Below are positions 16,721 to 33,448 of a stretch of DNA of 64,000 nt, piece by piece. Made by a program: the position numbers and the translations under genes. The stretch covers positions 84,198 through 148,197 of the IMG/VR virus record IMGVR_UViG_3300033145_000529; one strand, given 5' to 3'. How positions within the stretch are numbered: the first letter of the stretch is position 1; each line of letters begins with the position of its first letter. The stretch is from a virus. Under the pieces are notes generated by a model, which was not told the DNA's origin, made no database searches, and saw nothing but the letters and a program-made list of their open reading frames with translations.

Positions 16721-16761
16721 ACCACAAGCTTGTCATGGAGATGTTATAAAGGAATATTTGG

Positions 16762-17568
16762 ATGGTTCTTAGCATAAGAGAGCATGATAAAGTTGAGTGT
16801 ATTGATTTTGTTCAGGCTCATCATTATTCAAAAGTAATGCCAAAGTTAACTAAACACTATTTAGGTTTGTTCAATGGTGAGGAGCTTGTGGGGGTTGTTA
16901 CGTTAGGATGGGGGACTCAACCATTAGCTACTATTAATAAGCTATTTCCTGGTTACACTACTAAAGATTACTATGAGCTTGGCAAACTATGTGTTCACGA
17001 TAAAATGCCACGCAATACAGAAAGTCAGTATATTTCACTTCTGATTAAATGGTTGAAAGATAACACCGATAAGAAATTGCTTTACACGTTAGCTGATGGG
17101 GTTGTTGGAAAGGTAGGATATGTTTATCAAGCTAGTAATTTCTATTATGGTGGGTTCTTTTGGACTGATGTTTATATCGGGGTAGATGGCGAAAAGATTC
17201 ATCCTAGATCCGCAAGACAATTATGTAAAGAAAATGCTGAATTTGTGGGTAAGGATATGGTGTTCTGGTTAACTCCTGAGTATATGCAGGTGAAGGGGAT
17301 AAGAAGGATAAGAGGAAAGATGTATCGTTATGTTTATCCTCTTAATAAGAAAATTAGAAAAGAAGTAGAGGCAAGAGGATGGAATAGGGAGTATCCTAAA
17401 GATGGCTCATTGGTGTGGAGAGAACAAGTAGCAAAAAATAAGTATGTGGTATTACCTGAAATTCCACAATTTGCATTAGATGTAGTTAATGTTAATGCTA
17501 ACAATGTCAATAGGCATAGGAAGGAGAGGAGAGGACGTGAGAAAAATAATTGGTTACCATTATACTAA
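16762..17568 (+). CDS. Mom-like adenine-modification (GNAT-fold) protein
   Basis: HHYSKVMP, LGWGTQP, YELGKLC..MPRNTES, LADG..GYVYQASNFYYGG. Confidence 0.75.
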   Translation: MVLSIREHDKVECIDFVQAHHYSKVMPKLTKHYLGLFNGEELVGVVTLGWGTQPLATINKLFPGYTTKDYYELGKLCVHDKMPRNTESQYISLLIKWLKDNTDKKLLYTLADGVVGKVGYVYQASNFYYGGFFWTDVYIGVDGEKIHPRSARQLCKENAEFVGKDMVFWLTPEYMQVKGIRRIRGKMYRYVYPLNKKIRKEVEARGWNREYPKDGSLVWREQVAKNKYVVLPEIPQFALDVVNVNANNVNRHRKERRGREKNNWLPLY

Positions 17569-17724
17569 TAAGGAACTTCTTAACTTTTTTGGGATCGGTG
17601 AGGATTACGTTATACGAAGTGTTTTGGTGATAGAGGCAGATGATGATGAATCTGCTTCATATTGGTCAATAGAGGCAACGATTGAGGAAGTACCTAAGCG
17701 AAGGGGGAAGAGTAAGGAGAGGGT

Positions 17725-18723
17725 ATGTTCGGGGCAATAGGTACAATAACAGTTCTCTGTTTAGCGTTTGGGTTGGTTGCTTATTTTGCAATTAAGTATA
17801 TTCGTGAAGTTGCGAAGGTAAGAACTATTGAGCAAGAACATCGGATTGACATAAGAGAGCAACGAACAGATGCGGTTAAGAGGAGTCGTTCAGTAATCGA
17901 GGGGCAAGTGGCAGAACAACTTGTACCGCATTTCCCTGAGTGGAAATATGTTCCTTCAGAAGCCAGATTTCTAGCATCACCCCTTGATTACGTTGTTTTC
18001 GAGGGGTTGTCTAAGGATGAAGTAGATAGTATTAAATTTGTTGAAGTTAAAACTGGTAAAGGTAAACCAAACAAACGCCAAATTAGTACGAGAAAAGCGA
18101 TTGAGGATGGTAGAGTAGGTTATGAATTATTAGAGGTAGATATGAATGGCAAACCTGTAAAACAAGATGAAATAGATTTATGGATTGATAGAGCTAGTGT
18201 TGGAAAAACTATTGATGAGGTATCATTAGAATTTGGCAGAAGTACAGCAACAATATATAAGTATGTGCCAAAGGGGGTTTTTAATTCCAGTGGTGGACTG
18301 CGGAATGGTAAGAAGGTAATTTTATCTGACATTGATTCTGCTTATTTGGCTGGTATTATAGATGGGGAAGGTAGTATTGGGTTGTCTAAGTTAAACAGAA
18401 AAGGTAGAACATTTATTAGTCCAGTAATAACTATAACAAACACTAGCAAAAATTTAGTTGATAAAGTGTCATCAATCTATCCTAATGGCACTTGGAGAAC
18501 GAGGCAGAGGTCGTACAAGAATAAACCTATTAACGAATGGGTGTTAAATAAGACTAATAATGTAGCAGATTTGCTTCAACAAATAATACCTCATTTATCT
18601 GCTAAATTAGACAAAGCTAATTTGGTTTTAGATTTTTGTAAATATAGGCAAGAGAAAAAACCCTATTCAGAGATAGATTTGGAGTTTTTCAATAAACTTG
18701 AGGAGATTAAAAATGAGAAATAG
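17725..18723 (+). CDS. Holliday-junction-resolvase-related endonuclease fused in frame to an HTH-LAGLIDADG homing endonuclease
   Basis: TM helix, SRSVIEGQVAEQLVP, RFLASPLDYVVF, FVEVKTG; then YLAGIIDGEGSI. Confidence 0.8.
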   Translation: MFGAIGTITVLCLAFGLVAYFAIKYIREVAKVRTIEQEHRIDIREQRTDAVKRSRSVIEGQVAEQLVPHFPEWKYVPSEARFLASPLDYVVFEGLSKDEVDSIKFVEVKTGKGKPNKRQISTRKAIEDGRVGYELLEVDMNGKPVKQDEIDLWIDRASVGKTIDEVSLEFGRSTATIYKYVPKGVFNSSGGLRNGKKVILSDIDSAYLAGIIDGEGSIGLSKLNRKGRTFISPVITITNTSKNLVDKVSSIYPNGTWRTRQRSYKNKPINEWVLNKTNNVADLLQQIIPHLSAKLDKANLVLDFCKYRQEKKPYSEIDLEFFNKLEEIKNEK

Positions 18724-21250: not shown

Positions 21251-21615
21251 AATAAGTGGAATTTATGCTGTTAAGTTCTATCCTGACGGTTCATTAAGTA
21301 GGAACAAGAAAGCATTCAAAATGGTAGTCAATTCAGAGCGGGGTGTAATGGCTTTTGTTGATGAACAGAAACCTTTTGAGAGCATTAAAATAAAAGACCC
21401 CGATACTAAAGAGGACTTTACGGAATATTTTTTAGGTACAAAATAATGAAAGACCAGACTGGAAAAGAAATAAAGAGAGATTTTGCTCCCCGTAAAAGAA
21501 ATCCTAGTGATAAGTACAAGGTTAAGATTGTCGAGAAAAAACCTGATTATGATGTAACTAAAGACCCTCAAACTAAAAGACCTATTGTCATTAGAAAGAA
21601 AGGGGATAAGAACTA

Positions 21616-22074
21616 GTGAGAATTTCTTTTGACTTAGATGGTGTTATAGCTGACGGGCATCATTGGTTCTTCAGTATTCTAGAACCAATTAGAGGGATTG
21701 ACCGAGAGCGAGCTGAGTATGCAGAGTTGGAATATTATTCATCTCGTCCTTTAAAGTATCATCCTCACTTGTTCTTAGCGTCCGATGATGAGGCTATTAT
21801 TGTTACGGCACGTAAACCGAAAGCACAGGCAGTGACTTGTGCATGGTTGAAGATGTACGGTATTAACTTACCTACCTATTTTGTTGACCCCGATGATTGT
21901 ATAAATTGGGGGTCGTATGACGAAGCAGCAAAAGAGTCTGCAAGGTTAAAGTCAATAGTTATAAAGGAACAAAGGATAGCTGTTCATTTTGATAATAGTC
22001 CAATTTTAGTCGCAACATTAAGAAAAATCCTACCTGGAGTGAGGGTAATTCTAGTTGGTGGGGAAATGTCTTAA
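21616..22074 (+). CDS. HAD-superfamily hydrolase
   Basis: FDLDGVI, IVTAR, HFDNS. Confidence 0.8.
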   Translation: MRISFDLDGVIADGHHWFFSILEPIRGIDRERAEYAELEYYSSRPLKYHPHLFLASDDEAIIVTARKPKAQAVTCAWLKMYGINLPTYFVDPDDCINWGSYDEAAKESARLKSIVIKEQRIAVHFDNSPILVATLRKILPGVRVILVGGEMS

Positions 22075-22102
22075 AAATTATTGAAAAAACCTTAAAAAAG
22101 GC

Positions 22103-22131
22103 TTGACAATTCTTGTTTTATATGCTATAAT
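22103..22131 (+). promoter_or_regulatory. Sigma70-type promoter at the head of the tRNA array
   Basis: TTGACA-N17-TATAAT with TATG. Confidence 0.85.
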
Positions 22132-22148
22132 ACAAGTAGAGGATTAAG

Positions 22149-22283
22149 ATGGCTTATACTCCCCCTCCTGTACCACTAACAAAAGCGGAATTTTACAGAA
22201 AGTGTAAGGAACGACAAACTAAGACAGCATGTAAAGAGTGCGATAGGTGTCCTAGTAGGTTTGTATGCTGGACTATAAAGTAG
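22149..22283 (+). CDS. 44-aa protein consisting mostly of the CxxCxxRFxCxT module (below the ORF-track cutoff)
   Basis: MAYTPPPVPLTKAEFYRKCKERQTKTACKECDRCPSRFVCWTIK; RBS GAGG; follows a promoter. Confidence 0.7.
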   Translation: MAYTPPPVPLTKAEFYRKCKERQTKTACKECDRCPSRFVCWTIK

Positions 22284-22554
22284 GTATGATAGAATTATTA
22301 GAGAGGGTTCAGAGTCGCTGTTTGTTTATGCATCTGCCGTGCGGTTTAATGTTACAAGCAATACTACTAAAAATGGCAAGGAGTTGAAAAGAAAGTATGC
22401 TCCTAATGAGATAGATTACTTCATGGTATATTGTACAGATTTGGGTAGGATTTTCCTAATATCTGTAAAAGAGGCAACAAGTACGCTTCGGGTGGAAGCA
22501 ACAAAAAATAATCAGGATAAGGGCATTAAAGGGGGCACACGACTACGAATTTAA
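22282..22554 (+). pseudogene. PD-(D/E)XK homing endonuclease remnant
   Basis: RYD.., YAPNEIDYFMVYC..LR.EATKNNQ.KGI, frameshifted AHDYEF tail. Confidence 0.7.
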
Positions 22555-22561
22555 AGGTTTT

Positions 22562-22635
22562 GGGGGTGTGGTGTAATGGTAACATAGCAATCTGATAAGT
22601 TGCTGTAGGAGGATCAAAACCTCCCATCCCTACCA
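22562..22635 (+). tRNA. tRNA-Ile(GAT), atypical T loop
   Basis: GCAAT-CTGATAA-GTTGC; T loop ATCAAAA; encoded CCA. Confidence 0.75.
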
Positions 22636-22729
22636 ATTAAAGTGGTGACTTCTTATTTTAAGTGATATTACGAATGCAAAATGTAGGTTGAGAGACTACG
22701 AAATGCACTGTAAAGATAATAAAACATTA

Positions 22730-22801
22730 AGAGGCGTAGCTAACAGGTAAAGCAGTTGGTTTACACCCAACGAAAAAGGAGTTCGAATCTCCTCGCCTCT
22801 A
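22730..22801 (+). tRNA. tRNA-Val(TAC)
   Basis: GTTGG-TTTACAC-CCAAC; GTTCGAATC. Confidence 0.88.
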
Positions 22802-22861
22802 CCCAAGGTTGAGGTAAGTCACATCCAGGGCATTCTCACCAATAGCTACGGATTTGTACAG

Positions 22862-23053
22862 GTGGTGTCTGTACCAACCTCAACCTCTAGGAAAGTAGAT
22901 TTTGTTCTTTGTTGCATAATACCTCTAGATGTTTGGTATATAATTCCAATTGAAGACCTTGGTAGTAAGCACAATGTTCGTCTCTTTCTTGACATGATTG
23001 ATTCTAAATCTAAGTATTCTAAATATAAAGAAAATTGGGCAGTATTGGAGTAG
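22862..23053 (+). pseudogene. C-terminal remnant of a PD-(D/E)XK homing endonuclease
   Basis: VDFVLC..WYIIP..KYSKYKENW. Confidence 0.6.
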
Positions 23054-23134
23054 TGCCTGAGTGGTTTAAGGGGACGGTTTGCTAAACCGTTGGGCGTAAA
23101 TGTCCCGTAAGTTCGAATCTTATCTACTCCGCCA
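23047..23134 (+). tRNA. tRNA-Ser(GCT)
   Basis: ACGGT-TTGCTAA-ACCGT; long variable arm; GCCA end. Confidence 0.92.
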
Positions 23135-23144
23135 CATAAAAGGC

Positions 23145-23173
23145 TTGACTTGCTTAAAGGCTTATGATATAAT
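23145..23173 (+). promoter_or_regulatory. Sigma70-type promoter with extended -10
   Basis: TTGACT-N17-TATAAT with TATG. Confidence 0.8.
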
Positions 23174-23528
23174 GGAAGAGAAGTGGGTAACTGTCAGCAG
23201 CGAATATCTTAATAGAAAGTCTAAGTATAAGCATTGGGTACTTGGTTGTTGTGTTAAATGTAGAAATATTCAGGTCTACAGAGTTACAGATAGTGTAGTA
23301 GAAGCAAAGAAGTGGTGGGCTGTTGAGAAATGTGATAAGTGTGGAGGTCTTTGTGGTGTTTGTATCTTGAGTAAATACCAAAAACCACCTGGGTTTGCTA
23401 GAAAGTGTAAGAAGTGTAATTTTAGGTTCACTTGTGCTACTATTAGGATAAAGGAAATACCCTCTGTCTTAGTGGGGTTAACGACAGTAAGATTTGAATC
23501 CGAGGATGTTATAAAAGAGGATGTGTAG
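23172..23528 (+). CDS. Cys-rich protein with CxxCxxRFxCxT module (start uncertain)
   Basis: RKCKKCNFRFTCAT. Confidence 0.6.
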   Translation: MEEKWVTVSSEYLNRKSKYKHWVLGCCVKCRNIQVYRVTDSVVEAKKWWAVEKCDKCGGLCGVCILSKYQKPPGFARKCKKCNFRFTCATIRIKEIPSVLVGLTTVRFESEDVIKEDV

Positions 23529-23593
23529 CTCGATTTTGGTAGAGCCTCGGTCTTTTAAACCGAACGGTGTGGGTTCGAGTCCCATCACATCCA
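23519..23593 (+). tRNA. tRNA-Lys(TTT)
   Basis: TCGGT-CTTTTAA-ACCGA; GGTTCGAGTCC. Confidence 0.9.
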
Positions 23594-23595
23594 CG

Positions 23596-23928
23596 ATGGA
23601 TGAATACAAACATAAACAAGTAAAAATTAAAATACCTCCGTACAATTACTATGGTTATGTTGATGAGGGTATCGTTGATCTTGTGCAGTCTTTGTGGCGA
23701 CAAAAAATTATGACTGGCATGAGTTGCCAAGAGATTGATGGTAACATATGGTTAATGTTTGACTCCAAGAAGGATTTTGTTAAGTTCTTGGGGAAGGTTG
23801 ATTTTGTTGATATAACATTAAGTGATATTAGGTTGCGGAGACGAGATAAACGTATAGCTTATGAGTATGTGTCAGTTAGATTTCCAATTGATTTAAAGAA
23901 TAAAATTAAAAAGAGAATAGATGATTAG
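23596..23928 (+). CDS. Hypothetical protein
   Basis: VDEGIVDLVQSLW..TGMSCQ; start placed after the tRNA. Confidence 0.6.
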   Translation: MDEYKHKQVKIKIPPYNYYGYVDEGIVDLVQSLWRQKIMTGMSCQEIDGNIWLMFDSKKDFVKFLGKVDFVDITLSDIRLRRRDKRIAYEYVSVRFPIDLKNKIKKRIDD

Positions 23929-23931
23929 ATT

Positions 23932-24008
23932 GGGTGTGTAGCTAAATTGGTTAAGGCACTGGTCTCTTAAACCAGACATTAAGGGTTCGAGCCCCTTCAC
24001 ACCCACCA
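23932..24008 (+). tRNA. tRNA-Lys(CTT)
   Basis: CTGGT-CTCTTAA-ACCAG; ACCA end. Confidence 0.92.
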
Positions 24009-24160
24009 AAGGACATAAGTAGTTCCTATTAAATAACACAGAGGTCTACTTCGGTAGGCTTCTGTATTGAAAAAAGTACTACTCGTCCTTTAATAATCGG
24101 TATAATGGCATAAGCAGTTCCTATTAAAAAGTTGATTGAACAAATTTACTGCTCGCCATT
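24008..24160 (+). ncRNA. Two tandem homologous structured RNA units (Y-RNA-like bulged closing stems)
   Basis: GGAC-ATA-AGTAGT..ACTACT-C-GTCC (24008-24091) and TGGC-ATA-AGCAGT..ACTGCT-C-GCCA (24104-24160) with compensatory changes. Confidence 0.7.
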
Positions 24161-24175
24161 TAGGGAAGGGAAAGC

Positions 24176-26137
24176 ATGGAGTCAACAATTAAATTATTTA
24201 GAGCACTACCAATAACAACTAAGGAAAAGAAGTTTGATGAAAAATTGATGGAAGCAACCATTAAGCATGGCTTTGTATTTGCACCAGAGATTGTTGCTAA
24301 CTATTCTAACTATGATGAATTGATTGAAAAAGTTGAAAGATTAGTTGGGGTAAGCTCTGAGCAAATGAATAGTTCGTTCCACAAGGCTTGGGCTAAGGTT
24401 AGAAACACAGGTATGGAACAATTAGTAGTAGAACAGATAGCACACTATCTGACTACCTATGGCAAAGAGAACCCTGAAGCATATCTGATTGAAAAGGGTA
24501 TACAGTGGGGTGTTGATGACCTTTCTGATAAGGTGTCAAATCTAGATGACATAGAATTAGATAAAGTCCAAGATGCTAACTATGTTTATATCCCTAACGA
24601 GGTACTTGACATACCAGATGTAGAGTTGGATACGATTAAACTTATCGTAATCAAAGGATACACAAAAGCTGAACTAAAGGGCAAGCTGCTTGCTTTGTTA
24701 GGACTTGGAGTTGCTTTGGGGGAAGATACGATACAAGCTGTTGTAGAGGTAGCCACGTTTGTCGGAGTTGATGACAAAGATATTGAAAAGGTTAAGAACA
24801 AGGAAGTAAATACCGCCTTGTATGACTACTTAGGTCTTTTTCCAGAAAATCCAGTTGCGTTTTTAAGGTTTATTGTTTTCAAAGCAGCAAGTAAAACGCT
24901 TTTGATAAAAGATTATAATTTGATTCAAGCGATTAGGGAAAGCAATAACTTGAATGTAATTAAACTATTTGATGACTACGAAAAGAAATATGGATTAGAA
25001 AGGTTAGCTGAGATATTTAATAGGTTCAAACCACTTTTCTTAGCTTTTAGAACAAATGAAAGACTCAAGGTAGTAGTTAATAGGATAAGAAGACTTGCTG
25101 TGAGATACCACAAACCTCTTCCAGAAGATTTCCTTAACACTGTTACAGCTAGGGTAGGAAATAGTGAGAAGATAACCCAAGGTAAATTACAATCTGAACT
25201 GAGGAGAGTAAATGTCTTCAGGAAGATACGATTAGCTTATGCACTAAAATTTAGGACAAAAGACGTGGATTCTATTTTATATAGGATAAGGAATGGTAAG
25301 GGATATGCTACTGAGTTCACCTTCGGCAATCAGACTGAAGCTCAAAGAGTATTGGACATTGTATTAGACTCAATTGCCCGTGATGTTAGTAAGAATGTAA
25401 AGGACAAGAAAATATACATTCCAGAGCATATAAATTATAGTCTACCCGCAACTGAGAAGCAGTTTACTGGTAATTTCCCATCAGGAACTTGTGTGTCACT
25501 AACTGATAATATGATTGCTGGTATCAATTGGCATAACGTTAAACACAATAGGATTGACCTTGACCTGTCTTTATTATCAGTTACAGGTAAAATTGGTTGG
25601 GATTCTTCTTATAGAACAGAAGAAGGTGATGTGCTATTCTCTGGTGATATGACTGATGCTTGTAACGGAGCATCGGAACTTTTCTATGTTAAGAAGCAGA
25701 CTAAGAAATCGTTTATAATATTCGTTAATTACTATAATTTTGACGAGGCTATAAAAGTACCGTTCAAGATATTAGTTGCACATGAGGCTACTAAGAATCT
25801 TAGAAAAAATTATATGGTTGACCCTAATAATGTTGTAGCAATTACCGAATCAAAAATTGACCAGAAGCAAAAAATACTGGGGTTGCTAATCGTTACAACA
25901 ACAGGAAGCAAGTTTTATTTTGTTGAGGCAAATATAGGCAGGTCAATAACATCAAGTGGTACTGAATTTGCCACACGAAGCAGAAAGTATCTACTAGACT
26001 TTTATGAAAACACTATTATGTTAAGTGATGTTCTTACTAAAGCTGGTGCTAAACTTGTTGGTGACAGGGATGAAGCAGATATAGACTTATCACCAGAAAC
26101 GCTTGAAAAGGATACCATATTAACTATGCTTAGGTAA
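24176..26137 (+). CDS. Large helical protein with TerD-like C-terminal domain (possible divergent TROVE/Ro-like protein)
   Basis: QIAHYLTTYG; C-terminal GINW..RIDLDLS..KIGWD..FSGDMTDA..GASELFY. Confidence 0.6.
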   Translation: MESTIKLFRALPITTKEKKFDEKLMEATIKHGFVFAPEIVANYSNYDELIEKVERLVGVSSEQMNSSFHKAWAKVRNTGMEQLVVEQIAHYLTTYGKENPEAYLIEKGIQWGVDDLSDKVSNLDDIELDKVQDANYVYIPNEVLDIPDVELDTIKLIVIKGYTKAELKGKLLALLGLGVALGEDTIQAVVEVATFVGVDDKDIEKVKNKEVNTALYDYLGLFPENPVAFLRFIVFKAASKTLLIKDYNLIQAIRESNNLNVIKLFDDYEKKYGLERLAEIFNRFKPLFLAFRTNERLKVVVNRIRRLAVRYHKPLPEDFLNTVTARVGNSEKITQGKLQSELRRVNVFRKIRLAYALKFRTKDVDSILYRIRNGKGYATEFTFGNQTEAQRVLDIVLDSIARDVSKNVKDKKIYIPEHINYSLPATEKQFTGNFPSGTCVSLTDNMIAGINWHNVKHNRIDLDLSLLSVTGKIGWDSSYRTEEGDVLFSGDMTDACNGASELFYVKKQTKKSFIIFVNYYNFDEAIKVPFKILVAHEATKNLRKNYMVDPNNVVAITESKIDQKQKILGLLIVTTTGSKFYFVEANIGRSITSSGTEFATRSRKYLLDFYENTIMLSDVLTKAGAKLVGDRDEADIDLSPETLEKDTILTMLR

Positions 26138-26139
26138 GT

Positions 26140-26215
26140 GGGAGTATCGTCTAGGGGTTTAGGACACCAGTTTCTCAGACTGGTAACGGGAGTTCGATTC
26201 TCCCTACCCCTACCA
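26140..26215 (+). tRNA. tRNA-Glu(CTC)
   Basis: CCAGT-TTCTCAG-ACTGG; GTTCGATTC; CCA. Confidence 0.85.
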
Positions 26216-26500
26216 TGTGGGTATACATTTATGGAGATAAGATTAAACGAGTTGTGTATGGGTGGGTATGCCCCCATTGTGGCACGACTTGGATAGGTAA
26301 TTTTCTAAGTACTTGTCCAAAATGCAAATCTACACTTTGTCTGAGTCAAGAATTTATAACAAAAGCTAATGAAAAAGCGTGGAAAGCGTATGATTTACAA
26401 AAGATTAGTGCGAAACTTCATTAGGAGGTTATGTGATGAAACTATTTAGTTACTTTGGTGTAAATAACAAGAAATGATGGGTATGAAGCTTTTATAGGTG

Positions 26501-26574
26501 GGGAACGTAGCTCAACGTGGAGCAGTGGTCTTATATGCCAAAGGTTGTAGGTTCAAATCCTACCGTTCCTACCA
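26501..26574 (+). tRNA. tRNA-Ile(TAT)
   Basis: TGGT-CTTATAT-GCCA; GGTTCAAATCC; ACCA. Confidence 0.8.
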
Positions 26575-26575
26575 T

Positions 26576-26652
26576 CCCCCTATAGTCTAATGGAATTAAA
26601 ACGGTGGGCTACGAACCCACAGTTGCGAGTTCGAATCTCGCTAGGGGGTCCA
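26576..26652 (+). tRNA. tRNA-Arg(ACG)
   Basis: GTGGG-CTACGAA-CCCAC; CCA. Confidence 0.9.
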
Positions 26653-26834
26653 GTAAACCCATTTCGGGGGTGTGAGTAGTCTCACTATACGTGTAGGGAG
26701 TATGAGAAGCCGTGTACAGAGTGTACATTGATGTTACGAAACTATCATACGACAGCCTTGCTGTTGAAGTAAGCGTTCGCTTAATTGTATGACAATAAAC
26801 AAAAGAGCTTACTCACCCACCGAAATAGGTTTAC
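26653..26834 (+). ncRNA. Putative structured ncRNA (about 180 nt)
   Basis: Long closing stem GTAAACCCATTTCGG..GTGAGTA / TACTCAC..CCGAAATAGGTTTAC; starts immediately after the tRNA CCA. Confidence 0.65.
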
Positions 26835-26836
26835 GA

Positions 26837-27025
26837 ATGGAGAAGGTAGTACCATTAAGACAACAAATAACTAAGGTTGTTCAGAATAATCCTCATTTAG
26901 ATAATAGTTTTCTTGTGTCAGGTTGTCTTTGTTCTCATTGGAACGACCTTGAAGAATGCGATAAATGTCTTGTAAGATTTTATTGTTATACTCATTTTAG
27001 AGTGAAAATTGCCCCTGTAGTGTAA
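26837..27025 (+). CDS. Small protein with CxxCxxRFxCxT module
   Basis: CSHWNDLEECDKCLVRFYCYT. Confidence 0.65.
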   Translation: MEKVVPLRQQITKVVQNNPHLDNSFLVSGCLCSHWNDLEECDKCLVRFYCYTHFRVKIAPVV

Positions 27026-27086
27026 ATGGAGAACACATTAGTCTTCTAAGCTAATAGTCCGAGTTCAAATCTCGGCAGGGGTGCCA
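27011..27086 (+). tRNA. tRNA-Arg(TCT)
   Basis: TTAGT-CTTCTAA-GCTAA; GCCA. Confidence 0.9.
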
Positions 27087-27088
27087 GA

Positions 27089-27242
27089 GTACTTAGGATG
27101 CGGTAGCGTTTACAAGGTGAAAACTGATAGGTATTAGCTGAAATAACGTCAAAAGCACTTTGATAGAAAAGCTAATAGTGTGGAATACCGAGAACTATTA
27201 GCTAGGCACAGAGGAAAAACCGATAGCCTTTATCCTAAGTAC
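27089..27242 (+). ncRNA. Putative structured ncRNA between two tRNA-Arg genes
   Basis: Perfect 11-bp closing stem GTACTTAGGAT/ATCCTAAGTAC; internal stem AGCTAATAGT/ACTATTAGCT. Confidence 0.6.
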
Positions 27243-27249
27243 CCTTTAT

Positions 27250-27330
27250 CTCGCTGTAGTCGGGGCGGTTTCCTAAACCGTTATCCGTAAATCGGAACTG
27301 TAACTGTGGGTTCGAATCCCATCAGCGAGT
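27250..27330 (+). tRNA. Non-canonical tRNA-Arg(CCT)-like RNA lacking a normal D arm
   Basis: Acceptor CTCGCTG/CAGCGAG, GCGGT-TTCCTAA-ACCGT and T arm intact; only 8 nt in place of the D arm; extra hairpin after the anticodon arm. Confidence 0.65.
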
Positions 27331-27364
27331 CGTATGCTAGTGTAGTCGAATTAGGCAAGTCATA

Positions 27365-27660
27365 ATGAATGATTTAGAAAAGAGAGAATACCAAAGGAAT
27401 TGGTATCATAATCATAAGAAGCAAGCTAGAGCTTGCAGGAATAGACGCAAAGACAAGATAATGGTATAAAGAATATAAGAGTACGCTATTTTGTCATGAA
27501 TGTGGAGAGAATCACCCATGTTTAACCATGATAGCCACATCCAATGTTTTATCATCATTTGGATGATGAAAGCTCAAGCAAGCAGGTTGGTCTATTGAAC
27601 GTATAAAAGAGGAAATAGATAAATGTGAGAATTGTCATAGAAAAGGTTCTTGGGGGAAAT
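27365..27660 (+). pseudogene. Decayed HNH endonuclease (paralog of 34707..35036)
   Basis: MNDLEKREYQRNWY.., WYKEYKSTLFCHECGENHPCL, IKEEIDKC..NCHR in broken frames. Confidence 0.7.
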
Positions 27661-27665
27661 GTTTT

Positions 27666-27743
27666 GCTGGTGTAGCCCAATAAGGTAGAGGCAACAGCCT
27701 TAGAAGCTGTTCAGTGAGAGTCCGAATCTCTCCACCAGTACCA
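27666..27743 (+). tRNA. tRNA-Leu(TAG), short variable loop
   Basis: ACAGC-CTTAGAA-GCTGT; ACCA. Confidence 0.85.
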
Positions 27744-27756
27744 AAAGAGAATAAGA

Positions 27757-28145
27757 TGTATTTATACACGACAACTGACAATAGAACGATGAAAAGACAC
27801 TGGCATTTTGGTGGGAGAGAGTGTGATGGGTGTCAATATAGGTTTGAATGCTTTACTAGTAATAGAATCCATATTAAACTTGTGAAGGTGGATGTTACAG
27901 AGATACCTCACCTTTACCAACAGTGTGATAGATTCAAAGCGGAATTCCATTTACCAAAGTGTTTAAGACTTGGACTCTATAAACAAATAGCGGATTGTGG
28001 TTTTTGGAGTAGGAGTTACAGACAAAATTTCGGTGATGGATTCAAACTAGGAGCAATAATTGAAGAAGAAGATGAATATATTGATATAGAACGTGCGTGG
28101 GTGAAGTTTCCAGTTACTCTGTTTATAACTGGTACAATGAGATAA
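27757..28145 (+). CDS. Hypothetical protein with CxxCxxRFxCxT module
   Basis: WHFGGRECDGCQYRFECFT. Confidence 0.65.
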
Positions 28146-28146
28146 T

Positions 28147-28219
28147 GGTCTATAGGTGTTAATGGTGAGCATGCATCCCTGTCAAGGATGAGGGACGGGC
28201 TCGAAACCCGTATAGACCG
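28147..28219 (+). tRNA. tRNA-Asp(GTC)
   Basis: CATCC-CTGTCAA-GGATG. Confidence 0.85.
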
Positions 28220-28507
28220 CTATGAAAAATATAGATGACCTTAAAGGAGAGGAACATGAGAGAATTAAAAGTCACAGATGATGAGCTAGATATGTTACAC
28301 GGAGCACTTGTACTTCAATCGTGTTGTAATGGTGTATACTGTGTAAGTTCGTATGAAAAAGCTTTAAATGGTGATAAGGAAGAACTAGATGAGTATAAAT
28401 TTCATGGACATACTTTTGAGCAAATAAAAGAAGGAATTGCTCCACTTCTTTCTGTTATGGAGAAGGTTAAAACACTTTGGGAGTAAGCTAAGAAAGAATG
28501 AGGGTAA

Positions 28508-28583
28508 GGCACTGTAGCTAATTGGCAAAGGCGGTCGCCTGCAAAGCGATTTTAAGTGGGTTCGATTCCCACCAGTGCTTCCA
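28508..28583 (+). tRNA. tRNA-Cys(GCA)
   Basis: GTCGC-CTGCAAA-GCGAT; U73 then CCA. Confidence 0.9.
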
Positions 28584-28593
28584 AAGGAGATAA

Positions 28594-29112
28594 ATGAAAG
28601 ATTATTATAAGATTTTAGGTGTGGCTAGGGACGCTTCTCCAGAGGAGATAAAAAGGGCATATAGGAGACTAGCGAAACAATGGCATCCTGATGTAAATAA
28701 ATCTCTAGAAGCAGAAGCGAAATTTAAAGAAATAAATGAAGCTTACGAATCTTTAACGTCAAAGAGAACGCTGAATGGTACATTTGACCCGTTCGATGTT
28801 TTCTTCAGAGAGTTTAGTTCTTTTGGTGGCATCTTCAGTGGTCAAAATATTAATGTAATTAGAACAAGAAGGATAAGCTTATCTGTTGATTGGTTAACCA
28901 TGATTTTAGGTGGTGAGATTGTTGTTAATTTGGATGGGGAAAGAATTACATTGAAAGCTCCCCCACTATCTCAAGCAGGGCAAACAATTCACATTAAAGT
29001 TTATGGTGTTGATAACTATTTTACTTTGCAACCAAATTTACCAAGGTCATTGAGCGAGGAACAGAAAAAGAGTCTGGAAAATTTGAGAAATACATTGAAA
29101 GATGAATACTAA
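28594..29112 (+). CDS. DnaJ-domain protein (CbpA-like, short)
   Basis: [35 protein letters not shown]. Confidence 0.9.
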
Positions 29113-29346
29113 ACAAATTGGTGATATATCATAAGCTAATATAGAAGTTAAATTACTTTCCAAAGGATATACTGTTTTAGTCCCACGTGATAATGATAGG
29201 TATGATTTAGTAATAGATAAAGATGGTGCGTTTAAAAGGATACAGTGTAAGACTAGTCGTTTAAGGAATGGAGCAATCGTGTTCAAAACGGTCAGTTCTG
29301 AGTACCATAGAGGTGGATGACTTGGGCTAAAGATTATGAAATATAA
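29102..29346 (+). pseudogene. PD-(D/E)XK homing endonuclease with in-frame stop and internal deletion
   Basis: [46 protein letters not shown]..; WAKDYEI tail. Confidence 0.8.
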
Positions 29347-29348
29347 TT

Positions 29349-29424
29349 TCTGGTGTACTACAATTGGTAGTAGAATCGGCTGTTAACCGAGCATATGTTG
29401 GTTCGAATCCAACCATCAGAGCCA
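29349..29424 (+). tRNA. tRNA-Asn(GTT)
   Basis: TCGG-CTGTTAA-CCGA; GCCA. Confidence 0.88.
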
Positions 29425-29428
29425 AAAT

Positions 29429-29500
29429 GGGGGTATCTGCTAGTGGCTAGGCACTCAGGTTTTCACCCTGAAAACGGGAGTTCGATTCTCCCTACCCCTG
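29429..29500 (+). tRNA. tRNA-Glu(TTC)
   Basis: TCAGG-TTTTCAC-CCTGA. Confidence 0.88.
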
Positions 29501-29617
29501 CTCATATTAAACTAGTTCATGAGATTGCTGATGATGTTCTAATAAGAATTATTAATGATATAAATAACTTATTGGCAGTGTGTCCGAATCGTCACAAAAG
29601 AATATGATAATAAGAAT

Positions 29618-29692
29618 AGCGGGGAGATTGTTGGTTATCCGTTAGCTCTCATAAAGCTAACTACGTGGGTTCAATTCCCACCTCCGCCACCA
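29618..29692 (+). tRNA. tRNA-Met(CAT), 1:72 mismatch, atypical D arm
   Basis: TAGCT-CTCATAA-AGCTA; ACCA. Confidence 0.75.
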
Positions 29693-30063
29693 TGAAAATA
29701 TTTATATTAGATGATATGCCTAATAGACAACAATTTTTATCTTGTGCTATGTCTAAAATATACGGTGGTGATTCACATTGTATAGTTGCAGATAGTTTTA
29801 GTAATGCTGTCAAGGTATTTGAAGAACATAAGGAATTTGATATTATGTTTTTAGACCATGATTTGGGTGGGAAGATTTATGTTGATTCAGAAGACCCTAA
29901 TACTGGTTATCAAGTAGTTAAATACATGGCAGAGCATGACATTAAAGGTAAAGAAATTATTGTGCATAGTTTAAACTTTGCGGGAGTTCAAAATATGTTA
30001 GCAATATTACCAAAGCACGCAAAATATGTACCATATACCATTTTACACTCTTCAAGATTATAG
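29692..30063 (+). CDS. Cyclic-phosphate-processing receiver-like domain protein
   Basis: IFILDD..R, MFLDHDLG, TGYQV, IVHSLN. Confidence 0.75.
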   Translation: MKIFILDDMPNRQQFLSCAMSKIYGGDSHCIVADSFSNAVKVFEEHKEFDIMFLDHDLGGKIYVDSEDPNTGYQVVKYMAEHDIKGKEIIVHSLNFAGVQNMLAILPKHAKYVPYTILHSSRL

Positions 30064-30065
30064 AT

Positions 30066-30137
30066 TCTCCTGTAGTCTAATAGGTAGGACGGTTGGTTCT
30101 GAACCAGCTATTTCAGGTTCGAATCCTGACAGGAGAA
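30066..30137 (+). tRNA. tRNA-Gln(CTG)
   Basis: GTTGG-TTCTGAA-CCAGC. Confidence 0.88.
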
Positions 30138-30377
30138 CAGGAAAATAAGGTGTATCGGCAAGGTAGGATAGATGAGGAACTTAAAATACTGTAGTAATAC
30201 TTTGTTGAATGAAAAGATACGCTTGTTTGTATTGTAGTTATATCTATTATAGAGTCAAACCTAGATGGTGCAGAAGGTGTTTTAGTATCAGTATTTATGA
30301 AATAGATACAAATGGTTATGTCAAGAGAGGTTTAGACTTAGGTGATAAGACGCAAGAGAAGTTAAAGAATTGCGTAT

Positions 30378-30453
30378 GGTGACGGTCATTCAATGGTAGG
30401 AAGCCTCGCTGTGACCGAGGTAATGTAGGGTTCGAATCCCTCCCGTCACCCCA
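30378..30453 (+). tRNA. tRNA-His(GTG)
   Basis: CCTCG-CTGTGAC-CGAGG; encoded G-1 and C73; CCA. Confidence 0.88.
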
Positions 30454-30974
30454 TGAATCTAAGAGATAACATAGAAGCTTTAGGTTGCAGAATAGAAGGT
30501 GATTTCACTTTACATTCTGGTGCGAAGAGTAATGTAAAGTGGGATATTGAAAAGCTTTATTCTGATTATGCTTTACACGAGAGATTGTTTTACCTCAGAC
30601 CTTGGCACAGGGAAATCTTAAAATTTATAGGAGGTAGAGATGTCCTTATCGTGGGTATTCCTACTGGTGGAGAGAGATTGATGTATGATTTTGGTAGGCA
30701 CTATAAACTTAGATATGGTGACTCAAAATACCACCTTGCTCCCTGTATGAAAAATTGGGATGCTATTATAATAGATGATGTGTTGACTACTGGAGCAACT
30801 ATTAGGGAATTATTCGATAAAGTTCACATTCTAGGTGTAGCAGTTCTTGTTAACCGTTCAAAGCTAACTAAAATCAATAATAAACCTATTATCTCAGGAG
30901 TTTTTGCTGATGAATTTGATGGGAGATTCAAAGCCTGTAATTGCACCCAAGTATTGCATTGTGGCGGAGGTTAG
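30453..30974 (+). CDS. Orotate phosphoribosyltransferase-like protein
   Basis: GDFTLHSGAKS, GIPTGG, IIIDDVLTTGATI. Confidence 0.8.
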   Translation: MNLRDNIEALGCRIEGDFTLHSGAKSNVKWDIEKLYSDYALHERLFYLRPWHREILKFIGGRDVLIVGIPTGGERLMYDFGRHYKLRYGDSKYHLAPCMKNWDAIIIDDVLTTGATIRELFDKVHILGVAVLVNRSKLTKINNKPIISGVFADEFDGRFKACNCTQVLHCGGG

Positions 30975-30981
30975 CAGAGGC

Positions 30982-31010
30982 TTGACTTTTAACGTGGCTT
31001 GTGGTATTAT
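30982..31010 (+). promoter_or_regulatory. Sigma70-type promoter with extended -10
   Basis: TTGACT-N17-TATTAT with TGTG. Confidence 0.75.
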
Positions 31011-31373
31011 AATAGTGTGGACATAGTAATAGACCAAGAAGATACAATCTACCGTTATAAGTGCAACGAGCAATGTGATAATTGTCCGATGCGGTATGTT
31101 TGCTGGACACACAGGAAAGATGGTAATACTCTCCACTTAAAAGGACAATCCTATTTAGACCCGATGACTCGTGCTAGAGTGGGTTTGTTCGCAGGCAACC
31201 AAGAGACTTTATGTCCTTGGTGTTATCGAATAGAAAAGAAGGATGTAGCACGTAAACTTGGCGAAACTTGTCCCACTTGTGGTCATTATATAACATGTGA
31301 TAGTTGTATCAGAGATTGTAACCTCAGAAATGACCTCTATAACACTGATGGTGATTGCCTTATGACAAAGTAA
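30999..31373 (+). CDS. Cys-rich protein with CxxCxxRYxCxT module (start probably downstream of the promoter)
   Basis: YKCNEQCDNCPMRYVCWT. Confidence 0.65.
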   Translation: MWYYNSVDIVIDQEDTIYRYKCNEQCDNCPMRYVCWTHRKDGNTLHLKGQSYLDPMTRARVGLFAGNQETLCPWCYRIEKKDVARKLGETCPTCGHYITCDSCIRDCNLRNDLYNTDGDCLMTK

Positions 31374-31589
31374 GGAGAGGAATATATGGAAATACACGAA
31401 GGAAAACAGACACGAAATTACAGAATGTTCATCAAAATTGGGACTAAAAAACAATTAGATGCTATTGGAAAAAGTGGTGCTGGTGGGTTTAAGAAGGTTG
31501 AGCTTATGATTACTAGCAACTTTGATTTAATGGTTTCTGATTGCGATAAACCTTATTGGGTGGAACTGAAGTATAAAACTTAATCGAAA

Positions 31590-31666
31590 GCTCAGGTGAT
31601 GCAATAGGCAGACGGACACGTTTCAAAAACGTGGTTTTGAGAGTTCGAATCTCTCTCTGAGCACCA
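31590..31666 (+). tRNA. tRNA-Leu(CAA), short variable loop
   Basis: CACGT-TTCAAAA-ACGTG; ACCA. Confidence 0.85.
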
Positions 31667-31889
31667 TGTGTATAAGAAGATGTTCAAAATGTAACTCCAT
31701 TTGGGTGTGCTGGAACTGGGTGCACGCTTTTGGTGGTGATAGAAAAAGGTATGAAGAAACTAACCCACACATTCCACCAGAAGAATTGTTAGATTGGGGT
31801 CACGAATGTTGGAGTTGCAATAATGTCTTACAGACTAAAGATAAGGTTCACAACGGTATACCTTATTGGTTCTTAAAAAGATTTTATAA

Positions 31890-31963
31890 GGGAGTGTAGT
31901 CTAATAGGATTAAAACAGCAGCCTCCAAAACTGTACTTCGGGGTTCGAGTCCTCGTACTCCCG
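31890..31963 (+). tRNA. tRNA-Trp(CCA)
   Basis: Loop CTCCAAA; GGTTCGAGTCC; G73. Confidence 0.85.
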
Positions 31964-32105
31964 CATGATTGAGCAAAAGGAATATTCAGCATGGGTAGTG
32001 GAACGTTCAGTACTCTATTTGTATAGCATAGATTGGGTTTATGTTTTCGAATTGGAGTCTCTTATGGATCTAGAGGCAAGGTTACAATTAGATAATAATT
32101 AGGAG

Positions 32106-32441
32106 ATGTGTATGCGTGGAGCTAGATTAATTGTTGCTCGGTGTAAAGCTGAAAAGACTTTCAGAAATTACGAGGGATTTTCACCACGTAATAAAAAACA
32201 ATCGAGGTGGCATAGTTACTATGGCAGGTTAGGGTGGGCAGAAGACGAGATACAAAGAATGTTAGGAATTTACCGCAAAACTAAAGTTCCATGTTCTTGT
32301 TATATGTGTGGAAATCCTAGACGGCATTGGGGATATTTACCAATAAAAGAAGTTAGGCAACATCTTAGTGCTGATTCACAGTATGATGAAATACATTGGA
32401 ATCACCGAAAGTTAAGATGGTTGAAAGGATGGTTGGATTAA
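32106..32441 (+). CDS. Hypothetical protein
   Basis: KTKVPCSCYMCGNPRRH; RBS AGGAG. Confidence 0.65.
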   Translation: MCMRGARLIVARCKAEKTFRNYEGFSPRNKKQSRWHSYYGRLGWAEDEIQRMLGIYRKTKVPCSCYMCGNPRRHWGYLPIKEVRQHLSADSQYDEIHWNHRKLRWLKGWLD

Positions 32442-32491
32442 GAGGGGGCACCAAATATACGCAGACGAGACCGTTGTAAGGAATGTATTAA

Positions 32492-32565
32492 GCTCGTGTA
32501 GCCCAATCGGCAGAGGTGATGGATTTAAACTCCATTTAGTGTAGGTTCGACTCCTATCACGAGCA
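32492..32565 (+). tRNA. tRNA-Leu(TAA), short variable loop
   Basis: ATGGA-TTTAAAC-TCCAT. Confidence 0.85.
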
Positions 32566-32579
32566 CAAGGAGGGGTAAT

Positions 32580-32810: not shown

Positions 32811-32835
32811 CATCTACTTTGGTATATGGTATAAT
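32807..32835 (+). promoter_or_regulatory. Sigma70-type promoter with extended -10
   Basis: TTGACA-N17-TATAAT with TATG. Confidence 0.85.
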
Positions 32836-32872
32836 AATAATAGAGTTGGGGAACTCCAAATAAAGGAAAGGA

Positions 32873-33256: not shown

Positions 33257-33261
33257 TTAAA

Positions 33262-33444: not shown

Positions 33445-33448
33445 ATTT

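What the first reader, a model, noticed from the sequence alone, without database searches (positions are those of the whole stretch)
24008..26137. Two tandem co-varying Y-RNA-like stems directly upstream of a 653-aa protein with a TerD-like C-terminus
Seen: unit 1 (24008-24091) is AAAGGAC-ATA-AGTAGT-TCCTATTAAA..T-ACTACT-C-GTCCTTT. Unit 2 (24104-24160) is AATGGC-ATA-AGCAGT-TCCTATTAAA..T-ACTGCT-C-GCCATT. The AUA/C internal loop and UCCUAUUAAA are identical, while paired bases co-vary (U-A to C-G; GGAC/GUCC to UGGC/GCCA). Unit 1 carries an extra cUUCGg hairpin and starts at the CCA of tRNA-Lys; the ORF starts 15 nt after unit 2. Known: Ro60/TROVE proteins bind Y RNAs through a bulged terminal stem and are often encoded beside them and beside RNA-repair genes. 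Inference: this is a phage ribonucleoprotein (divergent Ro/Ter-type protein plus two cognate small RNAs), or tandem autoregulatory operator RNAs.
Basis: partly seen in the sequence, partly recalled or inferred. Interest (0 to 1): 0.8.

Follow-up and report, generated by a model that had tools for sequence, protein, structure and literature searches.

The report
Phage handle RNAs with TerD-fold partner
Two small folded RNAs in front of an unannotated 653-residue phage gene belong to a large RNA family, absent from Rfam, that sits beside this one protein family in all 79 phage loci and most cellular loci tested, so the pair is probably an RNA-protein particle laid out like Ro60 with its Y RNAs but built from unrelated parts.

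Summary
Both units fold as described. A covariance model built from relatives finds only these two sites in the 148-kb phage genome (61.9 and 46.1 bits).

- **RNA family:** a conserved "handle". It has a 5-bp outer stem, an A-N-A/C internal loop, a 6-bp inner stem ending G-U, then UCCUA...U. The apical part varies.
- **Linkage:** 223 hits in 83 phage loci and 113 in 80 cellular loci, all on the gene's strand. Every one of 79 phage loci with upstream DNA has at least one.
- **Control:** mycobacteriophage Bxz1, which has canonical Ro60 and a tRNA array, has none.
- **Relatives:** eleven units carry a YrlA-type permuted tRNA body.
- **Protein:** a basic helical domain plus a TerD-fold domain (Z 10.7). 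No Pfam family matches. Comparison with TROVE gives hhalign probability 0.1%, and the fold match to Ro60 is weak (Z about 6).

I read it as a cognate RNA-protein particle that works like Ro60/Y RNA, probably in tRNA or RNA repair, but is not a family member. Binding and function are inferred, not shown. This genome also encodes RtcB, an Rnl2-type ligase, a CCA-adding enzyme and a cREC-domain protein.

The scan has found the same system before on other DNA, and my tests agree. No held paper describes it.

The parts
23145..23173 (+). Near-consensus sigma-70-type promoter (TTGACT, 17 nt, TATAAT, with TG). It is the likely start of the transcript that carries the tRNAs, the two RNA units and the gene.
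   Evidence: 11 of 12 matches. No promoter-like or terminator-like site lies on the + strand between it and the units. This is a consensus match only.
23932..24008 (+). tRNA-Lys(CUU) with an encoded CCA. Its last A is the first base of the extended outer stem of unit 1.
   Evidence: ARAGORN; Rfam tRNA 67.6 bits.
24008..24091 (+). Handle RNA unit 1. Outer stem 24008-24014 pairs with 24085-24091. AUA loop at 24015-24017. Inner stem 24018-24023 pairs with 24078-24083. Bulged C at 24084. Invariant UCCUA at 24024-24028. Apical 12-bp hairpin with UUCG loop at 24038-24065.
   Evidence: Sequence; fold at -30.9 kcal/mol, z -5.7; model R1 at 46.1 bits, E 1e-11, and the unit was not in the training set.
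24104..24160 (+). Handle RNA unit 2. Outer stem 24104-24109 pairs with 24155-24160. AUA loop at 24110-24112. Inner stem 24113-24118 pairs with 24148-24153. Bulged C at 24154. A 29-nt A/U-rich loop begins with UCCUAUUAAA.
   Evidence: Sequence; fold; model R1 at 61.9 bits, E 1e-16.
24162..24174 (+). Purine-rich Shine-Dalgarno-like stretch (AGGGAAGGGAAAG), directly after unit 2 and before the ATG.
   Evidence: Sequence. Across 63 related loci the last unit ends a median of 27 nt before the start codon.
24176..26137 (+). Gene for the 653-aa partner protein. Acidic N-terminal part, residues 1-135. Basic helical domain, residues 136-410 (24581-25405). TerD-fold beta domain, about residues 441-606 (25496-25993). 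Short helical tail.
   Evidence: ORF. AlphaFold2 pLDDT 91.7, pTM 0.89. TerD fold: Z 10.7 and 9.9, Foldseek probability 1.0. 1,427 clusters of relatives. Helical domain pI 9.5, with 17 conserved K/R positions between residues 209 and 375.
26140..26215 (+). tRNA-Glu(CUC), starting 3 nt after the stop codon. The gene and its RNAs are embedded in the tRNA operon.
   Evidence: ARAGORN; Rfam tRNA.

Best explanation
The two units are small non-coding 'handle RNAs'. The 653-aa protein encoded just downstream is their cognate binding partner, and together they form a ribonucleoprotein.

**Shown**
- The RNA fold is conserved through covariation.
- The RNA and the gene are linked in both directions, in phages, bacteria and archaea.
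- The handle is constant while the apical module varies.

**Inferred**
- The units are transcribed with the tRNA array from the promoter near 23145. They are cut out by the enzymes that process tRNA precursors. Unit 1 starts at the CCA end of tRNA-Lys, and related units are packed about 13 nt apart, like tRNAs.
- The basic helical domain (residues 136-410) grips the invariant part of the handle: the A-N-A/C internal loop, the G-U/A-C top of the inner stem, and the single-stranded UCCUA...U.
- The apical module is left free to engage other factors.
- In relatives that module is a permuted tRNA body, a T-arm/acceptor minihelix or an anticodon-loop-like hairpin. The particle therefore most likely acts on, or mimics, tRNA, and serves tRNA/RNA surveillance or repair during infection. 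This is the logic of Ro60 with YrlA and RtcB.
- The unit next to the ribosome-binding site may also let the protein limit its own translation.
For: **Structure**
- The training alignment is 97.6% paired, with 360 double-change cells against 106 +/- 11 in shuffles.
- An independent set of 106 units from cellular genomes was not picked by my regex. It is 96.1% paired, 10 of 11 pairs change on both sides, and there are 269 double-change cells against 75 +/- 7. Slid controls give 41-53% paired.

**Linkage, gene to RNA**
- 223 hits in 83 phage loci (767 kb, both strands), all on the gene's strand.
- All 79 loci with upstream DNA are positive.
- 113 hits in 80 cellular loci, all on the + strand.

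**Linkage, RNA to gene**
- 45 of 91 pattern-selected IMG/VR stretches have the gene just 3' on the same strand.
- Both complete 411-424 kb phages with dispersed units encode one family protein.

**Specificity**
- There are only two hits in this genome.
- There are none in Bxz1, which has Ro60 and a tRNA array.
- No other gene is conserved nearby.

**tRNA and repair theme**
- Eleven units carry a permuted T arm, closed acceptor and D arm.
- S-CRM01 unit B hits Rfam YrlA at 35.9 bits.
- RtcB lies within 5 kb in 5 loci, and a CCA-adding enzyme lies near in 6 loci, counting this window.
- This genome encodes RtcB, an Rnl2-type ligase, a cREC domain, a metallophosphoesterase and a CCA-adding enzyme.

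**Protein**
- The helical domain has pI 9.5 and 17 conserved K/R positions.
Against: - No binding, expression or processing data exist. Everything rests on comparative genomics.
- The protein has no recognised RNA-binding domain, and its TerD-fold domain has no known role with RNA.
- The two units in this window carry no tRNA-like module. Unit 1 has a plain UUCG hairpin and unit 2 an unstructured A/U-rich loop, so the tRNA link is borrowed from relatives.
- RtcB is a neighbour in only 5 of 164 loci, and tRNAs lie within 4 kb in only 21 of 83 phage loci.
- The last unit consistently sits 20-36 nt before the start codon. That fits a cis-regulatory role equally well.
Confidence: 0.65

Rival explanations
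1. The units are purely cis-acting operators in the 5' leader of the mRNA. The protein binds them only to repress its own translation, and there is no stable trans-acting RNA.
For: - Unit 2 ends 15 nt before the ATG, with the Shine-Dalgarno-like stretch directly after it.
- In 63 related loci the last unit ends a median of 27 nt (quartiles 20-36) before the start codon.
- Units are always on the gene's strand.
Against: - Units also lie directly downstream of the gene (L009, L016, L035, L066, L074, L080, and S-CRM01 at L001 5829-5880).
- Units lie 1.3-2.5 kb away in L006, S-CBWM1 and Phass-1.
- Units are dispersed over kilobases in 411-424 kb phages, none within the fetched stretches that hold the gene.
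- Copy number runs from 1 to 7.
- Apical modules are elaborate tRNA mimics, which an operator does not need.
Confidence: 0.15
2. The protein is a true but extremely diverged Ro60 (TROVE) homologue whose vWA domain was replaced by a TerD domain, and the units are diverged Y RNAs.
For: - Ro60 (1yvp_A) is the only long-range structural match to the helical part: Z 5.8-6.0 with 225-271 residues aligned.
- Relatives' units carry YrlA-type tRNA-like modules.
- The gene order, RNAs upstream of the gene, is the same as in Thermus phage phiLo Ro60 (PMC12135203).
- GUUCCUA resembles the vertebrate motif GGUCCGA at 5 of 7 positions.
Against: - No TROVE hit at E <= 1 for any of 50 members.
- hhalign against a TROVE profile gives probability 0.1%.
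- No sequence hit in the PDB at E <= 10.
- The structural match has rmsd 5-7 A, and its Z is in the range that helical repeats reach by chance.
- The YrlA model matches only the tRNA-like part, not the stem.
- The bacterial Ro-binding motif GNCGAA is absent.
Confidence: 0.1
3. The units are processing or punctuation signals, or insulators, of phage tRNA operons. They have no specific tie to the protein.
For: - In this window they fill the gap between tRNA-Lys and the gene.
- Unit 1 abuts the tRNA 3' end, as do units in S-CRM01 and L027.
- Spacing between units is tRNA-like.
Against: - Only 21 of 83 phage loci have any tRNA within 4 kb, yet all have the units.
- This window's tRNA array of at least 27 genes has units at one place only.
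- Bxz1, with about 30 tRNAs, has none.
Confidence: 0.03

Closest known systems
Ro60 (Rsr; TROVE + vWA) with bacterial and phage Y RNAs YrlA/YrlB (Rfam RF02553; Chen et al. 2014, PMC4201824; Thermus phage phiLo Ro60 with Yrl1/Yrl2, PMC12135203)
   Same: - A large helical protein is encoded next to one or several small RNAs on the same strand.
- The RNAs are modular. A conserved interrupted stem formed by the 5' and 3' ends carries a variable module.
- In 11 relatives that module is the same permuted tRNA body as in YrlA (T arm, closed acceptor, D arm).
- The system occurs in phages with tRNA arrays and sometimes beside RtcB.
   Different: - The protein has no detectable TROVE domain (Pfam none; hhalign 0.1%).
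- It ends in a TerD-fold beta domain instead of vWA/MIDAS.
- The handle is a different motif (A-N-A/C loop, G-U, UCCUA...U) and lacks GNCGAA and GGUCCGA.
- The window's units score nothing against Rfam YrlA.
- Up to 7 tandem copies occur.
- The four genomes tested with this system have no TROVE gene, and the one Ro60 phage tested has no handle RNA.
TerD-family proteins (TerD/TerE/TerZ; PDB 2kxt, 2qz7, 3ibz)
   Same: Residues about 441-606 adopt the TerD beta-sandwich (Z 10.7, rmsd 3.1 A, 143 residues aligned). They keep TerD-like acidic motifs: IDLDLS, and SGD-x-TDA followed a few residues later by E.
   Different: - Classical TerD proteins are about 190-aa stand-alone calcium-binding proteins of ter operons, with no RNA link.
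- Here the domain is below the Pfam threshold and is fused to a 410-residue N-terminal region.
- It is genetically tied to an RNA.
Autogenous translational operators of phage RNA-binding proteins (T4 RegA, gp32, gp43; MS2 coat protein hairpin)
   Same: A structured RNA sits just before the ribosome-binding site of the gene for the protein that presumably binds it.
   Different: Those operators are single, lie within the leader and have no modular tRNA-like parts. Here there are 1-7 copies, which can lie downstream of the gene or far from it.

Membership tests
Ro60 / TROVE protein family | TROVE domain detectable by sequence (Pfam PF05731) | tested here: not met
   - No Pfam family at E <= 1 for the window protein, and none at E <= 0.1 for any of 50 relatives.
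- hhalign of the family profile against a 25-sequence TROVE profile gives probability 0.1%.
- PF05731 is absent from this genome, S-CRM01, S-CBWM1 and Phass-1, but is found in the Bxz1 control.
Ro60 / TROVE protein family | HEAT-repeat ring (toroid) fold | tested here: inconclusive
   VIA-align against 1yvp_A gives Z 5.8 (rmsd 5.1 A, 271 aligned) for the whole model and Z 6.0 (rmsd 7.2 A, 225 aligned) for residues 1-410. This is within the chance range for helical repeats. Foldseek finds no match at E <= 0.001.
Ro60 / TROVE protein family | C-terminal vWA domain with a MIDAS site | tested here: not met
   The C-terminal domain is an all-beta TerD fold, not an alpha/beta vWA fold.
Y RNA, YrlA type (Rfam RF02553) | Match to the Rfam covariance model at its gathering score (69 bits) | tested here: not met
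   No YrlA match at E <= 1 anywhere in window 21500-36500. The best relative, S-CRM01 unit B, reaches 35.9 bits, through its tRNA-like part only.
Y RNA, YrlA type (Rfam RF02553) | Ro-binding motif GNCGAAN0-1G (bacterial) or GGUCCGA (metazoan) in the 5' strand of the terminal stem (PMC4201824) | tested here: not met
   Sequence of both units. The corresponding place reads GUUCCUA, and 184 related units are invariant for GUUCCU.
Y RNA, YrlA type (Rfam RF02553) | tRNA-like module (T arm, acceptor-like stem, D arm) | tested here: not met
   The module is absent from the window's two units. It is present in 11 units of related loci: S-CRM01 unit B (L001 3618-3735), plus L020, L033, L034, L036, L051 x2, L055, L058 and L059 x2.
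Y RNA, YrlA type (Rfam RF02553) | Bound by the adjacent protein in vivo | not testable with these tools
   Needs immunoprecipitation or a gel-shift assay.
TerD domain family (Pfam PF02342) | TerD beta-sandwich fold | tested here: met
   2qz7_B gives Z 10.7 (rmsd 3.1 A, 143 aligned) and 2kxt gives Z 9.9. Foldseek probability is 1.0 for 2kxt, 3ibz, 2qng and 2qz7.
TerD domain family (Pfam PF02342) | Match to the Pfam model | tested here: not met
   No hit at E <= 1. Only the fold and short acidic motifs remain (D461, D463, D491 and E501 are invariant).
Handle-RNA family defined here (model R1) | 5-bp outer stem, 3-nt/1-nt internal loop, 6-bp inner stem ending G-U/A-C, then UCCU...U, scored by the covariance model | tested here: met
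   Unit 2 scores 61.9 bits and unit 1 scores 46.1 bits. Unit 1 was not in the training alignment.
Handle-RNA family defined here (model R1) | Encoded on the same strand as a member of the 650-aa helical + TerD-fold protein family, usually next to it | tested here: met
   Here it lies 15 nt upstream. It holds in 79 of 79 phage loci with upstream DNA and in about 71 of 76 cellular loci with upstream DNA.

The most novel reading that the evidence does not exclude
This is a new class of ribonucleoprotein, unrelated by descent to Ro60/Y RNA. A TerD-fold protein holds a set of exchangeable RNAs by a common handle. Their free ends imitate parts of tRNA: a whole permuted tRNA body, a T-arm/acceptor minihelix, or anticodon loops such as CUUUUAA of tRNA-Lys. 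Phages would use it as a decoy or sensor against host tRNA-cleaving defences, such as anticodon nucleases. Alternatively it would bring RtcB and the CCA-adding enzyme to broken tRNAs.
Probability: 0.25. Interest if true: 0.9.

Novelty: new variant of a known kind. Interest (0 to 1): 0.8.

Why it matters
**Two large unnamed families gain a lead.** The protein family has 1,427 clusters at 50% identity and is mostly viral. The RNA family has hundreds of copies in the loci sampled. Neither has a name in Pfam, NCBIfam, PHROGs or Rfam, and no held paper describes them. Each is the other's only constant neighbour, which gives both their first functional lead.

**If the pair is a particle, three things follow.**
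- The Y-RNA design, a handle for the protein plus a free module that imitates tRNA, would have arisen at least twice.
- The TerD fold would get its first link to RNA.
- A common component of the tRNA and RNA-repair regions of large phages would be explained. These regions are already thought to counter host tRNA-cleaving defences.

**It is directly testable.** Cultured phages carry the system, including Synechococcus phages S-CRM01 (g174) and S-CBWM1 (gp22).

Tried and rejected
**Database searches that found nothing**
- Rfam at E <= 1 gives nothing at the units.
- Pfam, PHROGs, NCBIfam and PADLOC give nothing meaningful for the protein.
- PDB sequence searches, with a single sequence and with a profile, give nothing at E <= 10.
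- The ESM Atlas returns only unnamed viral clusters plus a weak TerD lead.
- Foldseek and VIA-align on residues 1-410 alone give only generic helical bundles.
- BFVD returns only uncharacterised phage proteins, for example from Campylobacter virus IBB35 and Lactobacillus phage LpeD.

**RNA structure ideas rejected**
- Kink-turn: the pairs after the 3-nt loop are Watson-Crick (G-C or A-U), not tandem G.A.
- Extra pairing between the two flanks of the big loop: no mutual information or pairing signal, best MI 0.13.

**Context searches**
- A conserved third gene: BLAST clustering of all neighbouring ORFs found none, in phage or cellular loci. Neighbours are ordinary replication or nuclease genes.
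- tRNA adjacency as a rule: only 21 of 83 loci.
- The 8-mer GTTCCTNT alone is uninformative in the window.
- About half of the exact-pattern hits in IMG/VR were chance matches without the fold.

**Literature**
- Searches for TerD with RNA, and for YrlA with phage, found no description of this system.
- Burroughs and Aravind 2016 could not be read because it is not held.
Full report
**1. The observation**

- Unit 1 (24008-24091) is AAAGGAC / AUA / AGUAGU / UCCUAUUAAA ... U / ACUACU / C / GUCCUUU. It encloses a 12-bp hairpin with a UUCG loop at 24038-24065.
- Unit 2 (24104-24160) is AAUGGC / AUA / AGCAGU / UCCUAUUAAA ... U / ACUGCU / C / GCCAUU.
- ARAGORN places the CCA end of tRNA-Lys(CUU) at 24008.
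- The only long ORF starts at 24176, 15 nt after unit 2, and runs to 26137 (653 aa).
- tRNA-Glu follows 3 nt after the stop codon.

The minimum-free-energy folds give the proposed stems. Unit 1 folds at -30.9 kcal/mol (z -5.7) and unit 2 at -12.7 kcal/mol (z -2.3). The window is part of a 148,197-bp virus record with at least 27 tRNA genes.

**2. The units belong to a large RNA family tied to one protein family**

The protein has no Pfam, PHROG, NCBIfam or PADLOC family. It does have 1,427 clusters of relatives at 50% identity, nearly all 600-700 aa long.

In annotated phages it matches only 'hypothetical proteins':
- S-CRM01 g174;
- S-CBWM1 gp22;
- a Phass-1 gene.

Reading the DNA upstream of those genes showed the same architecture with different stem sequences: five units in S-CRM01 and one in S-CBWM1.

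A structural pattern search over 83 phage loci found about 200 units. All but three lie on the gene's strand.

I aligned 123 short units (A3) and built covariance model R1. The results of searching with R1 were:
- **This genome:** only the two units of the finding, in the window and in the whole genome.
- **83 phage loci:** 223 hits at E <= 0.01, all on the + strand. Every one of the 79 loci with DNA upstream of the gene is positive. The four blanks are genes cut off by a contig end.
- **80 loci from bacterial and archaeal assemblies:** 113 hits, all on the + strand, almost all within 500 nt upstream of the gene.

The training units were chosen by a rule that demands pairing. I therefore counted covariation again on the 106 cellular hits, which were not chosen that way:
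- 96.1% of cells are paired.
- 10 of 11 pairs change on both sides.
- There are 269 double-change cells, against 75 +/- 7 in shuffles.
- Slid registers give 41-53% paired.

Several positions are conserved although the rule did not demand them:
- the C-G pair that closes the outer stem;
- A at positions 1 and 3 of the 3-nt loop;
- the bulged C;
- the fourth base of UCCU;
- the U before AC.

**3. The link holds in the reverse direction, and a control is negative**

I scanned IMG/VR for the exact 18-nt handle pattern, which gave 91 stretches.
- In 45, the family gene lies just 3' on the same strand.
- Of the other 46, about 21 have true model hits. Most of these sit at the edge of the fetched stretch, or are dispersed over kilobases in very large phages. 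The remaining stretches are chance pattern matches without the fold.
- Both complete 411-kb and 424-kb genomes with dispersed units encode exactly one family protein elsewhere. The two records without the protein are 5% and 9% complete fragments.

Mycobacteriophage Bxz1 has a canonical Ro60 and a large tRNA array. It has no R1 hit in 156 kb.

No other protein-coding gene is conserved beside the pair, in phages or in cells.

**4. Anatomy of the RNAs**

The constant part is the handle. The part between UCCUA and U-AC varies. It can be:
- an unstructured A/U-rich loop, as in unit 2 here;
- a stable hairpin capped by a tetraloop, as in unit 1 here;
- a T-arm-like hairpin plus a second hairpin;
- in 11 units, a full permuted tRNA body in the order T arm, closed acceptor stem, D arm.

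The last form is the design of the bacterial Y RNA YrlA (PMC4201824). Rfam's YrlA model matches S-CRM01 unit B end to end at 35.9 bits (E 1.7e-4, below the gathering score of 69). The match comes through the tRNA-like part and not through the stem.

Among the units, hairpins of at least 4 bp that close a 7-nt loop of the form YU-NNN-RN occur 37 times, against 4.8 expected. Nine of these are T loops. Among the rest, CUUUUAA/G, the anticodon loop of tRNA-Lys(UUU), is the most common, with seven cases. This is a lead, not a result.

Units are packed a median of 13 nt apart. The last one ends a median of 27 nt before the start codon.

Close relatives keep the same two RNA types as here. One type has inner stem AGUAGU and a variable apical hairpin. 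The other has inner stem RGCAGU.

**5. The protein**

AlphaFold2 with 50 relatives gives a confident model (pLDDT 91.7, pTM 0.89).

- **C-terminal domain.** Residues about 441-606 are a TerD-fold beta-sandwich. 2qz7_B gives Z 10.7 (rmsd 3.1 A, 143 aligned) and 2kxt gives Z 9.9. Foldseek probability is 1.0. TerD-like acidic positions D461, D463, D491 and E501 are invariant.
- **N-terminal region.** Residues 1-410 are mostly helical and match nothing clearly.
- **Comparison with Ro60.** Ro60 (1yvp_A) is the only hit that spans the helical part. It scores Z 5.8-6.0 with rmsd 5-7 A, which helical repeats reach by chance. A profile-profile comparison with 25 TROVE proteins gives probability 0.1%. 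I therefore do not file the protein under Ro60.
- **Charge.** The helical domain 136-410 is basic (pI 9.5) and carries 17 conserved Lys/Arg positions between residues 209 and 375. This suits an RNA-binding surface. This last step is inference.

**6. Context**

A near-consensus promoter lies at 23145-23173. No terminator-like site lies on the + strand before the gene. The units, the gene and the flanking tRNAs are therefore probably one transcript.

The same tRNA array encodes:
- a cREC-domain protein (cyclic-phosphate-processing receiver domain, 29665-30063);
- a metallophosphoesterase (33684-34301);
- a CCA-adding enzyme with an HD domain (38050-39447, minus strand).

Elsewhere the genome has RtcB, in two adjacent frames, and an Rnl2-type RNA ligase.

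Across the 163 related loci and this window, RtcB lies within 5 kb in five (L015, L028, L095, L112, L116). A CCA-adding enzyme lies near in six. tRNAs lie within 4 kb in 21 of 83 phage loci, always on the same strand. The repair and tRNA theme is thus recurrent but not obligatory.

**7. Explanation and rivals**

*Best reading, confidence 0.65.* The protein and the handle RNAs form a particle. The protein holds the handle and the apical module is free. The particle works in tRNA/RNA surveillance or repair during infection, on the plan of Ro60/YrlA/RtcB.
- Shown: the fold, its covariation, the two-way linkage and the modularity.
- Inferred: binding, processing and function.

*Rivals.*
- **A purely cis-acting operator (0.15).** This fits the position next to the ribosome-binding site. 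It does not fit units that lie downstream or far away, or the tRNA-like modules. An additional autoregulatory role is compatible with the main reading.
- **A true but unrecognisable Ro60 homologue (0.10).** This cannot be excluded by fold, but it has no sequence support and lacks the vWA domain.
- **A tRNA-operon punctuation element unrelated to the protein (0.03).** The distribution contradicts this.

**8. Novelty**

Neither family is in Pfam, NCBIfam, PHROGs or Rfam 15. No held paper describes the system.

Notes from this scan show that other agents reached the same reading for the same system on other genomes. They gave me two leads, to look at cellular genomes and at RtcB, and I tested both here.

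I class the finding as a new variant of a known kind. The design is that of Ro60/Y RNA, but the parts are different.

Noticed in passing
own genome G000:C1:16690-17744 (minus strand; outside the window, which is 84198-148197): RtcB (PF01139) appears as two adjacent open frames. Model positions 10-211 lie in 17250-17744 and positions 219-420 in 16690-17226. This could be a split gene, a frameshift or an intervening sequence. An Rnl2-type RNA ligase (PF09414) lies at 4181-4696.
   Followed up: no
window 29665-30063, 33684-34301, 38050-39447(-), 28594-29112: Genes embedded in or near the tRNA array: a cREC_REC protein (cyclic-phosphate-processing receiver domain), a calcineurin-like phosphoesterase, a CCA-adding enzyme with an HD domain, and a DnaJ-domain protein. 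Together with RtcB and the ligase they form an RNA-repair kit.
   Followed up: partly
L003 (Phage Phass-1, OQ749652.1) 7162-7626: Six handle units stand in tandem directly 5' of the phage's tmRNA gene (7635-8073), 1.3 kb downstream of the partner gene. The annotated CDS at 7169-7468 overlies them and is probably spurious. Three more units lie at 105.6-107.2 kb of the record.
   Followed up: partly
L001 (Synechococcus phage S-CRM01, NC_015569.1) 3791-3937: The annotated minus-strand gene g173c lies entirely over handle units C-E and is probably not a gene.
   Followed up: no
L072 3628-3747: One unit carries a normally ordered, not permuted, tRNA-like insert as its apical module. ARAGORN calls it a tRNA of undetermined identity at 3654-3729.
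   Followed up: no
L112 6972-8624 and L130 6850-8514: In two bacterial loci a 550-aa HEAT-repeat protein is encoded directly after the partner gene. In L112, RtcB lies upstream, with a handle unit right behind it at 3784-3832.
   Followed up: no
window 22103-22131 and 23145-23173: Perfect (12/12) and near-perfect (11/12) sigma-70 consensus promoters with extended -10 TG sit inside the tRNA region. They suggest host-polymerase transcription of the array.
   Followed up: no
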